12,341 nt of DNA from the NCBI RefSeq assembly GCF_003334815.1, contig NZ_QOWO01000059.1; one strand, 5' to 3'. Shown one piece after another: positions 3,716-3,813 of the stretch. The number at the start of each line of letters is the position of its first letter. Within the stretch, counting starts at the first letter, position 1. The notes beneath the pieces are model-generated. The model saw nothing but the letters and a program-made list of their open reading frames with translations, had not been told where the DNA came from and did not search any database. The translations under genes and the position numbers were made by a program. Source of the stretch: Escherichia coli (GTDB taxonomy: Bacteria; Pseudomonadota; Gammaproteobacteria; Enterobacterales; Enterobacteriaceae).

Positions 3716-3757
3716 GTCCCCCTCACCCTAACCCTCTCCCCAAAGGGGCGAGGGGAC
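3716..3757. repeat. GC-rich palindromic intergenic element (unclassified small repeat/hairpin)
   Basis: gtccccctcaccctaaccctctcccc-aaa-ggggcgaggggac: the 10-nt arms ccctctcccc / ggggcgaggg pair with one G-U position, and the outer gtcccc / ggggac arms offer an alternative pairing. Lies between convergent yjgR and lptG. Confidence 0.35.
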
Positions 3758-3792
3758 CGATCGAACTCGTATTTGACTTTATCAACAATGTG

Positions 3793-3813
3793 AAAGGGAG
3801 CTTTCGCTCCCTT
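3793..3813. terminator. Candidate bidirectional terminator hairpin between convergent yjgR and lptG
   Basis: aa-gggagc (3794..3801), loop tttc, gctccc-tt (3806..3813). It starts 7 bp beyond the lptG stop (3820..3822) on the minus strand and about 90 nt beyond the yjgR stop on the plus strand. Flanks are moderately U/A-rich. Confidence 0.4.

What the first reader, a model, noticed from the sequence alone, without database searches (positions are those of the whole stretch)
3716..3813. Two distinct hairpins in the yjgR-lptG convergent spacer
A GC-rich C-tract/G-tract palindrome (3716..3757) is followed by a separate terminator-like stem-loop (3793..3813). The first does not resemble a REP unit and has no U-tract; it could be a member of a minor intergenic repeat family or a protein-binding or RNA-stability element.
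Basis: seen in the sequence. Interest (0 to 1): 0.2.

Follow-up and report, generated by a model that had tools for sequence, protein, structure and literature searches.

The report
BoxC repeat plus shared terminator hairpin
The first hairpin is a copy of a long-known E. coli dispersed repeat (BoxC, also called PIT, TMECO or HPG1), and the second is the hairpin that ends the two converging genes, so both features are real but ordinary.

Summary
Both hairpins exist at the stated coordinates and are far beyond chance.

Hairpin 1 (core 3719-3754) is not a simple palindrome. It has three blocks: CCCCTCACCC, TAA, CCCTCTCCCC, AAA, GGGGCGAGGGG. Its minus strand is identical to three catalogued E. coli K-12 copies of the BoxC / PIT / TMECO "type A mm" repeat. 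It also contains the exact HPG1 G-quadruplex 21-mer. The repeat occurs about 19 times per E. coli genome (range 2-36). It has been studied since 1992, and the papers read here record no demonstrated regulatory function.

At this site the repeat is strain-variable. About one third of 5,426 complete E. coli genomes carry it. The rest, including K-12, carry a REP element in the same place.

Hairpin 2 (3794-3813) is invariant in all eight alleles aligned, six E. coli strains besides this window and K-12. It lies 6 nt after the lptG stop. In the K-12-type allele it has A/T-rich flanks on both sides, as a bidirectional intrinsic terminator does. In this window both T-tracts are eroded.

Verdict: already known, low interest.

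The parts
3707..3761 (.). Approximate full BoxC unit, the core plus partly conserved flanks
   Evidence: The blastn match of the 63-nt query to the K-12 phnP-yjdP copy spans query 2-56. The six-locus alignment shows an invariant core and partly conserved flanks. Published BoxC length is 51-59 bp (PMC5172473).
3719..3754 (-). TMECO / PIT 36-mer CCCTCGCCCCTTTGGGGAGAGGGTTAGGGTGAGGGG, type A with one mismatch. It contains the HPG1 21-mer GGGAGAGGGTTAGGGTGAGGG.
   Evidence: The exact string was located. It is identical to TMECO nos. 7, 11 and 15 in Table 1 of PMC4666352. The formal TMECO pattern matches once at 3720-3754 (-) with 0 expected by chance. The HPG1 sequence is given in PMC5100583.
3718..3728 (+). 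C-block A (CCCCCTCACCC)
   Evidence: Read directly. It is one arm of inverted repeat I2.
3732..3741 (+). C-block B (CCCTCTCCCC)
   Evidence: Read directly. It is complementary to the G-block at 9 of 10 positions.
3745..3755 (+). G-block (GGGGCGAGGGG), which can pair with block A or block B
3719..3775 (.). Allele-specific block of 57 nt, replaced in K-12-type strains by a 90-nt block made of a REP plus an AT-rich stretch
   Evidence: Alignments A1 and A3. Spacer lengths are 118 versus 160 nt.
3794..3813 (.). Hairpin 2: AAGGGAGC-TTTC-GCTCCCTT, with a GAAA loop on the lptG strand. It is the shared terminator-type hairpin of the converging lptFG and yjgR transcripts.
   Evidence: It is invariant in all 8 alleles aligned. 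Other genera have a GC-rich hairpin directly after lptG, with a run of 7-9 T in three of the five.
3814..3819 (.). Site of a 9-nt deletion (TATTCGTTC) relative to the REP alleles and strain Rb-23. The deletion removes the T-rich tail on the yjgR side.
   Evidence: Alignment A3 and tail scores.

Best explanation
Hairpin 1 is one copy of the BoxC repeat. The same element is also called PIT (potential intrastrand triplex), TMECO and HPG1. It is a roughly 56-bp G/C-rich dispersed intergenic repeat found in E. coli and many other proteobacteria.

Its three 9-11-nt blocks allow several structures. The isolated single strand can form a hairpin, a purine-motif intrastrand triplex, or (G-rich strand) a G-quadruplex. 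With its complement present it is ordinary duplex.

At this locus I read it as a strain-variable passenger, not a dedicated regulator. It sits in the yjgR 3' UTR, starting about 17 nt after the stop codon. There the C-rich strand is transcribed and should fold into a hairpin of about -27 kcal/mol, upstream of the shared terminator. In two thirds of E. coli genomes a REP element occupies the same position.

Hairpin 2 is the intrinsic-terminator-type hairpin shared by the converging lptFG and yjgR transcripts. In the K-12-type allele it has A-rich and T-rich flanks on both sides, so it looks bidirectional. In this window a 9-nt deletion and two substitutions have weakened both T-tracts. Termination here is therefore probably leaky, with Rho as backup.

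What is shown: the identity of the repeat, its copy number, the allelic replacement, and the invariance of hairpin 2. What is inferred: that BoxC has no function here, and that hairpin 2 terminates transcription.
For: Identity of hairpin 1:
- The 36-mer at 3719-3754 (-) is identical to catalogued K-12 TMECOs 7, 11 and 15 (Table 1 of PMC4666352).
- The published pattern CCCTCNCCC-N3-6-GGGNGAGGG-N3-GGGNGAGGG matches once, with 0 expected by chance.
- The HPG1 21-mer is present exactly (PMC5100583).

Dispersed repeat:
- A 63-nt query hits all 5,426 complete E. coli genomes, with a median of 19 places and a maximum of 36.
- The core CCCCTCACCCTAACCCTCTCCCCA.A(C)GG.GCGAGGGGAC.G is almost identical at six unrelated loci: fabI upstream, phnP-yjdP, alx-sstT, recX-recA, tusA-zntA and this one. 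The few differences are the middle base of the first loop, one extra C and two single substitutions.
- Four of those loci are in the published K-12 lists.

Strain variability:
- 1,810 of 5,426 genomes carry this allele.
- K-12, O157:H7, BEN2908 and others carry a REP-containing 90-nt block instead.
- This fits the published finding that TMECO loci are unusually rearranged between strains (PMC4666352).

Lack of a regulatory role:
- As summarised in PMC4666352, earlier work found no promoter or terminator activity for PIT elements in vivo.
- There is no bias in gene class or distance to ORFs.

Hairpin 2:
- It is invariant in 8 alleles while its flanks vary.
- It lies 6 nt from the lptG stop.
- The K-12 allele scores +8.3 / +18.4 on a d'Aubenton-Carafa-type score. 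This window scores -11.8 / -0.4.
- Klebsiella, Kosakonia, Atlantibacter, Cronobacter and a Salmonella-labelled genome all have a different GC-rich hairpin directly after lptG. Three of the five follow it with a run of 7-9 T.
- Klebsiella keeps the lptG/yjgR convergence with a 48-nt spacer that holds the terminator only.

Rho backup: a Rho termination region lies on the lptG strand inside antisense yjgR in K-12 (position 4488692, Rho score 3.3; Adams 2021 supplementary file 2).
Against: - No transcript 3' end is listed in the spacer (coordinates 44883xx-44885xx) in the one Term-seq dataset I could search. That dataset is from K-12, which has the REP allele, and expression there is low. Termination at hairpin 2 is therefore not demonstrated.
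- The window's T-tracts fall below the scan threshold.
- Two different stable stem-loop repeats occupy exactly the same place between the yjgR stop and the terminator. This could mean a structured element is selected there, which argues against a pure passenger reading.
- How BoxC spreads is unknown. No transposase is associated with it (PMC4666352).
Confidence: 0.85

Rival explanations
1. BoxC acts here as a 3'-UTR stabiliser for yjgR mRNA. Its stable RNA hairpin would block 3'-to-5' exonucleases, as REP elements are known to do. On this reading BoxC and REP are functionally interchangeable cassettes kept at this position.
For: - The RNA hairpin is -27 kcal/mol with z = -4.06.
- It lies between the stop codon and the terminator.
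- The alternative allele has a REP in exactly the same position.
- No allele lacking both elements appeared among 59 chromosomal genomes sampled across the ranking or among the 9 intact contexts.
Against: - Klebsiella has only the terminator in a 48-nt spacer.
- BoxC copies occur in either orientation and both upstream and downstream of genes, with no positional bias (PMC4666352).
- There are no mRNA half-life data.
Confidence: 0.2
2. The element works at the DNA level as a non-B structure, either an intrastrand triplex or a G-quadruplex on the lptG-sense strand. Such a structure would stall polymerases or promote local rearrangement. It would be the cause of the variability of this spacer, including the eroded terminator tails.
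For: - A triplex was shown in vitro by NMR and CD, and loci around TMECOs are hypervariable (PMC4666352).
- A G4/hairpin switch was shown by CD for the sister motif HPG2 (PMC5100583).
- In the ViennaRNA DNA model the G-strand G4 (-18.7) beats the hairpin (-14.4).
- This spacer carries a block replacement and a 9-nt indel.
Against: - In vivo DMS footprinting showed no protection.
- With the complementary strand present, the duplex forms.
- The association with variability does not show causation. Repeats may simply accumulate in spacers that tolerate change.
Confidence: 0.15
3. Hairpin 1 is itself a Rho-independent terminator for yjgR.
For: It is a strong GC-rich stem immediately after the stop codon.
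Against: - The stem is followed by AACTCGTATTTGAC, which is not a T-run.
- The terminator scan does not report it.
- PIT elements had no terminator activity in published tests, as summarised in PMC4666352.
Confidence: 0.03
4. Hairpin 1 is a binding site for a sequence-specific protein.
For: The core is almost identical across copies, more conserved than pairing alone requires.
Against: - No known transcription-factor motif matches it (PMC5100583).
- Near-identity also fits recent spread or gene conversion.
- Copy number ranges from 3-5 places per genome (Nissle 1917, E2348/69) to 29 (O26, O111), which is odd for a regulon.
Confidence: 0.05
5. Hairpin 2 is an RNA-processing or stability hairpin and not a terminator.
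For: - The T-tracts are weak in this window.
- No Term-seq 3' end is listed in K-12.
- Read-through on the lptG strand is ended by Rho further downstream.
Against: - The K-12-type allele has the A-tract/T-tract symmetry typical of bidirectional terminators and positive scores in both directions.
- Other genera have a GC-rich hairpin at the same place after lptG, three of five followed by a run of 7-9 T.
Confidence: 0.12

Closest known systems
BoxC = PIT element = TMECO type A mm (Bergler 1992 and Bachellier 1999 from my own knowledge and as cited in PMC4666352; Hoyne/Maher 2000 and 2002; Holder et al. 2015, PMC4666352)
   Same: - The 36-nt sequence is identical to K-12 copies 7, 11 and 15.
- It is intergenic.
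- It is multi-copy.
- Its presence varies between strains.
   Different: This locus (yjgR-lptG) is not in the K-12 catalogues, because K-12 has a REP there. I could not find the gene names in the held supplement text of PMC4666352, and that text is partly cut.
HPG1 'G-quadruplex-hairpin-duplex switch' motif (Kaplan et al. 2016, PMC5100583)
   Same: - The exact 21-mer GGGAGAGGGTTAGGGTGAGGG is present.
- The conserved C-rich run lies 3 nt upstream of it.
   Different: It is the same element under another name. That paper does not mention BoxC. Its 16 K-12 members do not include this site.
REP / BIME elements
   Same: - Both are stable intergenic stem-loop repeats.
- A REP occupies the same position in the alternative allele.
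   Different: - The two elements have no sequence similarity in the alignment.
- The REP-derived Rfam model hits elsewhere in the window but not here.
- REPs have a known transposase (RAYT); this is my own knowledge. BoxC has none known.
Bidirectional intrinsic terminators between convergent genes (Ju et al. 2019, my own knowledge, paper not held)
   Same: Hairpin 2 is a single GC-rich hairpin between converging genes. In the K-12-type allele it has an A-tract upstream and a T-tract downstream.
   Different: In this window both tails are eroded. No 3'-end data support termination here.

Membership tests
BoxC / PIT / TMECO | Pattern CCCTCNCCC-N3-6-GGGNGAGGG-N3-GGGNGAGGG (PMC4666352) | tested here: met
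   One match at 3720-3754 (-), with 0 in 200 shuffles.
BoxC / PIT / TMECO | Sequence identity to catalogued members | tested here: met
   The 36-mer is identical to TMECO 7, 11 and 15. The core is near-identical at fabI, phnP, alx and tusA.
BoxC / PIT / TMECO | Many dispersed copies per genome, all intergenic | tested here: met
   Median of 19 places per genome, maximum 36. This copy lies between two stop codons. The literature gives 23-33 copies in K-12.
BoxC / PIT / TMECO | Type A second loop TTA with one mismatched triplet | tested here: met
   GGGAGAGGG-TTA-GGGTGAGGG, with CCCTCGCCC in place of CCCTCTCCC.
BoxC / PIT / TMECO | Forms an intrastrand triplex as an isolated strand | not testable with these tools
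   Shown by NMR and CD for the identical type A mm oligonucleotide class in PMC4666352.
HPG1 G-quadruplex motif | Four G3 runs with 3-nt loops (exact 21-mer) and a C-rich run about 3 nt upstream | tested here: met
   A G4 is predicted at -12.6 kcal/mol for the G-rich half.
REP / BIME | REP consensus sequence and structure | tested here: not met
   No alignment to the K-12 REP at the same site. Rfam naRNA4 hits 7855-8026 only.
Intrinsic terminator (hairpin 1) | GC-rich stem followed by a T-run | tested here: not met
   Not reported by the scan. The tail is AACTCGTATTTGAC.
Intrinsic terminator (hairpin 2) | GC-rich stem of at least 5 bp with a 3-8-nt loop | tested here: met
   8-bp stem, 4-nt loop, -13.9 / -14.5 kcal/mol.
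Intrinsic terminator (hairpin 2) | At least 5 T in the 8 nt after the stem | tested here: not met
   The window has 4 of 8 in both directions and the scan does not list it. The K-12-type allele has 5-6 of 8 and positive scores.
Intrinsic terminator (hairpin 2) | Transcript 3' ends map at the hairpin | tested here: inconclusive
   No curated 3' end in the spacer in Adams 2021 (K-12, low coverage). Other datasets are not held.

The most novel reading that the evidence does not exclude
BoxC and REP could be interchangeable cassettes at one fixed position between the yjgR stop and the shared terminator. No empty-site allele was seen among the E. coli genomes sampled. This could mean selection for any very stable stem-loop there. 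It might protect yjgR mRNA or buffer head-on RNA polymerase traffic at a leaky bidirectional terminator. Alternatively, arrival of the triplex/G4-prone element may have driven the erosion of the terminator's T-tracts.
Probability: 0.1. Interest if true: 0.35.

Novelty: already known. Interest (0 to 1): 0.08.

Why it matters
It matters little beyond annotation. This spacer can be labelled as a BoxC/TMECO type A copy plus the lptFG/yjgR terminator hairpin.

There are three small points of value:
- The locus is a clean natural example of a BoxC-versus-REP allelic replacement, present in roughly 1 in 3 versus 2 in 3 E. coli genomes. It could serve as a test bed for the still unknown function and spread of BoxC.
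- The same element carries four names in four literatures. One of those papers (PMC5100583) does not cite the others' name, so annotators can easily miss it.
- RefSeq annotation shows no feature under the element in the hits listed, apart from one overlap with the yjgR coding sequence.

Tried and rejected
- Rfam. With a permissive E-value on 3400-4100 I got only chance-level eukaryotic miRNA-type hits (E = 0.9-7), nothing credible.
- First literature search. The term 'box C' was swamped by snoRNA papers.
- Genome-contig scan. It gave no enterobacterial census. The cross-phylum spread it revealed is already published (Table S1 of PMC4666352).
- Term-seq and SEnd-seq evidence. Only the Adams 2021 supplements were searchable. 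They list no 3' end in the spacer. Dar & Sorek 2018, Conway 2014 and Grünberger 2022 have no held supplements, and Ju 2019 is not held.
- Terminator scoring. A first score that counted the A-U pairs as stem gave negative values everywhere. I recomputed with the GC stem only. The absolute threshold is uncertain because modern energy parameters differ from those used to calibrate the formula, so I rely only on the contrast between alleles.
- Outgroup check for the ancestral state. Only Klebsiella keeps the lptG/yjgR convergence, and it has neither repeat. The closer outgroups E. albertii and E. fergusonii were not reached.

Full report
**1. The observation**

The window is E. coli. It is 100% identical over 301-401 nt to many strains, including O26, O103 and Nissle 1917. 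yjgR (2151-3701, +) and lptG (3820-4905, -) converge on a 118-nt spacer, 3702-3819.

Both hairpins are present.
- Hairpin 1 has arms 3710-3721/3752-3763 and 3719-3728/3746-3755. It folds at -27.0 kcal/mol on the + strand, z = -4.06, with 0 of 200 shuffles as good.
- Hairpin 2 is a perfect 8-bp stem with a 4-nt loop at 3794-3813, z = -3.5 / -5.0 on the two strands.

The description needs one correction. Hairpin 1 has three blocks: C-block A (3718-3728), C-block B (3732-3741) and a G-block (3745-3755). The G-block is complementary to either C-block at 9 of 10 positions. On the opposite strand there are four G3 runs separated by 3-nt loops.

**2. What hairpin 1 is**

A 63-nt query (3706-3768) hits every one of 5,426 complete E. 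coli genomes. The median is 19 places per genome and the maximum is 36.

Copies fetched from five other loci share an almost identical 41-nt core and partly conserved flanks. Those loci are fabI upstream, phnP-yjdP, alx-sstT, recX-recA and tusA-zntA. The few core differences are the middle base of the first loop, one extra C and two single substitutions.

The literature identifies the element under four names.
- **BoxC.** A 56-bp repeat (51-59 bp) with 32-33 copies in K-12 (PMC5172473 and PMC2267715).
- **PIT.** Potential intrastrand triplex element, from the Maher laboratory.
- **TMECO.** Described by Holder et al. 2015 (PMC4666352), who state that BoxC, PIT and TMECO are the same element.
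- **HPG1.** A "G-quadruplex-hairpin-duplex switch" described by Kaplan et al. 2016 (PMC5100583). That paper does not mention BoxC.

The minus strand of 3719-3754 is letter-for-letter TMECO nos. 7, 11 and 15, which are "type A mm". The published TMECO pattern matches once in the window, with none expected by chance. The HPG1 21-mer GGGAGAGGGTTAGGGTGAGGG is present exactly.

Rfam has no family for it. The REP-derived Rfam model naRNA4 hits the pepA-holC spacer of this window (7855-8026) but not this site. It is therefore not a REP.

**3. What is known about the element**

- The isolated G-rich strand forms a stable intrastrand triplex. NMR shows 18 imino signals, and type A mm melts at 74 °C (PMC4666352).
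- The sister motif HPG2 switches between a G4-like and a hairpin-like CD signature depending on the cation.
- In both studies, adding the complementary strand gives duplex.
- In vivo DMS footprinting showed no protection.
- Earlier work, as summarised by Holder et al., found no promoter or terminator activity and no in vivo effect on polymerases.
- No association with gene class, distance to ORFs or mobile elements was found.
- TMECO loci are markedly more rearranged between E. coli strains than control spacers.
- The pattern occurs 3,610 times in 262 proteobacterial genomes.

This is consistent with the published spread. Their Table S1 lists Bradyrhizobium, Rhodopseudomonas, Azotobacter, Caulobacter and others.

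In my ViennaRNA runs, the G-strand as single-stranded DNA prefers a G4 (-18.7) over the hairpin (-14.4). As RNA, the hairpin wins on both strands (-30.1 and -27.0).

**4. This locus in particular**

K-12 MG1655 has a 160-nt spacer. At the same position it carries a REP (GCCTGATGCGACGCTGGCGCGTCTTATCATGCC) plus an AT-rich stretch instead of BoxC.

Across complete genomes there are two structural alleles.
- The BoxC allele has a 118-nt spacer and is found in 1,810 of 5,426 genomes, about 33%.
- The REP allele has a 160-nt spacer and is found in the rest.

The swapped block is about 57 nt (3719-3775) against 90 nt in K-12.

The BoxC allele occurs in O26, O103 and O111 strains and also in Nissle 1917 and E2348/69. 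The REP allele occurs in K-12, O157:H7 and BEN2908. From my own knowledge of E. coli phylogroups, each allele therefore spans several groups. That implies recombination or an old polymorphism.

This is why neither published K-12 catalogue lists this site. It matches the "intergenic change" class of Holder et al.

Total copy number also varies. The blast count gives 3-5 places in Nissle 1917 and E2348/69 against 29 in O26 and O111 strains. This is in line with the published 1 versus 29.

**5. Hairpin 2**

It is invariant in all eight alleles aligned, while its flanks vary. It begins 6 nt beyond the lptG stop.

In the K-12-type allele it is flanked by AATAAT upstream and TTTATTCGTTCATT downstream. 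It therefore reads as hairpin plus T-tract in both directions. A d'Aubenton-Carafa-type score gives +8.3 (yjgR direction) and +18.4 (lptG direction).

In this window two changes lower the scores to -11.8 and -0.4, and the consensus scan does not report the hairpin.
- A 9-nt deletion (TATTCGTTC) removes the tail on the yjgR side.
- AATAAT has become AATGTG on the other side.

In five other genera lptG is followed within about 30 nt by a different GC-rich hairpin, and three of the five follow it with a run of 7-9 T. Klebsiella keeps the convergence with yjgR in a 48-nt spacer that contains only that terminator. This supports two inferences. The position is the conserved lptFG terminator. The E. 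coli repeats are later additions between it and yjgR.

Direct evidence is lacking. The only searchable Term-seq dataset (K-12; Adams 2021) lists no 3' end in the spacer. It does list a Rho termination region on the lptG strand about 290 nt beyond the stop, antisense to yjgR, with a Rho score of 3.3. This suggests that some read-through past the hairpin is mopped up by Rho.

**6. Mechanism and rivals**

My best reading has two parts.
- Hairpin 1 is a BoxC/TMECO copy, a structure-prone dispersed repeat that is a strain-variable passenger in the yjgR 3' UTR.
- Hairpin 2 is the shared terminator-type hairpin, and it is weakened in this allele.

The main rival is that a stable stem-loop is selected at this spot, making BoxC and REP functionally equivalent mRNA stabilisers. 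It draws some support from the absence of any empty-site allele in the E. coli genomes sampled. Klebsiella manages without either repeat.

Three other readings have little or no support (see the rival list):
- a DNA-level instability role;
- hairpin 1 as a terminator;
- hairpin 1 as a protein-binding site.

**7. Verdict**

The element has been described repeatedly since 1992, so it is already known and of low interest.

Noticed in passing
window 3814-3819 and 3788-3793: Relative to K-12-type alleles, this allele lost 9 nt (TATTCGTTC) just after hairpin 2 and changed AATAAT to AATGTG just before it. Both T-tracts of the putative bidirectional terminator are weakened. Strain Rb-23 has BoxC but keeps the 9 nt, so the deletion came after BoxC.
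   Followed up: yes
window 7855-7930 and 7951-8026 (-): Two Rfam naRNA4 (REP/BIME-derived) matches above gathering score in the pepA-holC spacer, that is, a REP cluster.
   Followed up: no
window 6827-7021 (-): A strong Rfam match to Yersinia antisense sRNA Ysr276 (175 bits) lying inside the pepA coding region on the opposite strand.
   Followed up: no
window 770-854 (-), 1008-2069 (+), 2151 (+): tRNA-Leu(CAA) (leuX) and the aldehyde reductase gene ahr lie directly next to yjgR. From my own knowledge of the K-12 map, the idn operon sits between ahr and yjgR in K-12, so it appears to be absent in this strain.
   Followed up: partly
L008-L127 (genome-contig scan): The BoxC two-C-block pattern is highly repeated in unrelated MAGs.
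- An Archangium MAG has more than 90 copies in two subfamilies.
- An Afipia MAG and a Candidatus Contendobacter MAG also carry it.
- In an unclassified MAG (JANYBJ01) the motif is embedded in longer repeats of about 90 nt, in two subfamilies.

Cross-phylum spread is published, but these very high copy numbers and the longer host repeats were not examined further.
   Followed up: partly
L006 301-346 (E. coli O145:H28, recX-recA spacer): A BoxC copy between recX and recA that is not in either K-12 catalogue. It is another strain-variable insertion site.
   Followed up: no
L005 (E. coli O55:H7, alx-sstT spacer): A type A and a type B copy in inverted tandem, the paired arrangement already described for five K-12 sites.
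   Followed up: no
L137 about 1975-2283 (GCA_053189825.1): In one E. coli assembly yjgR is cut about 130 nt from its 3' end by inserted DNA that encodes a Mor-domain protein, probably a Mu-like prophage. The spacer there is the REP allele.
   Followed up: partly
K-12 coordinate 4488692 (+), antisense to yjgR: The published DirectRNA-seq data with and without bicyclomycin list a Rho termination region on the lptG strand inside antisense yjgR (Rho score 3.3). This implies read-through of the spacer in K-12.
   Followed up: partly
E. coli genome collection: BoxC-like places per genome range from 3-5 (Nissle 1917, E2348/69) to 29 (O26, O111). 368 weak partial matches lie on plasmids.
   Followed up: no
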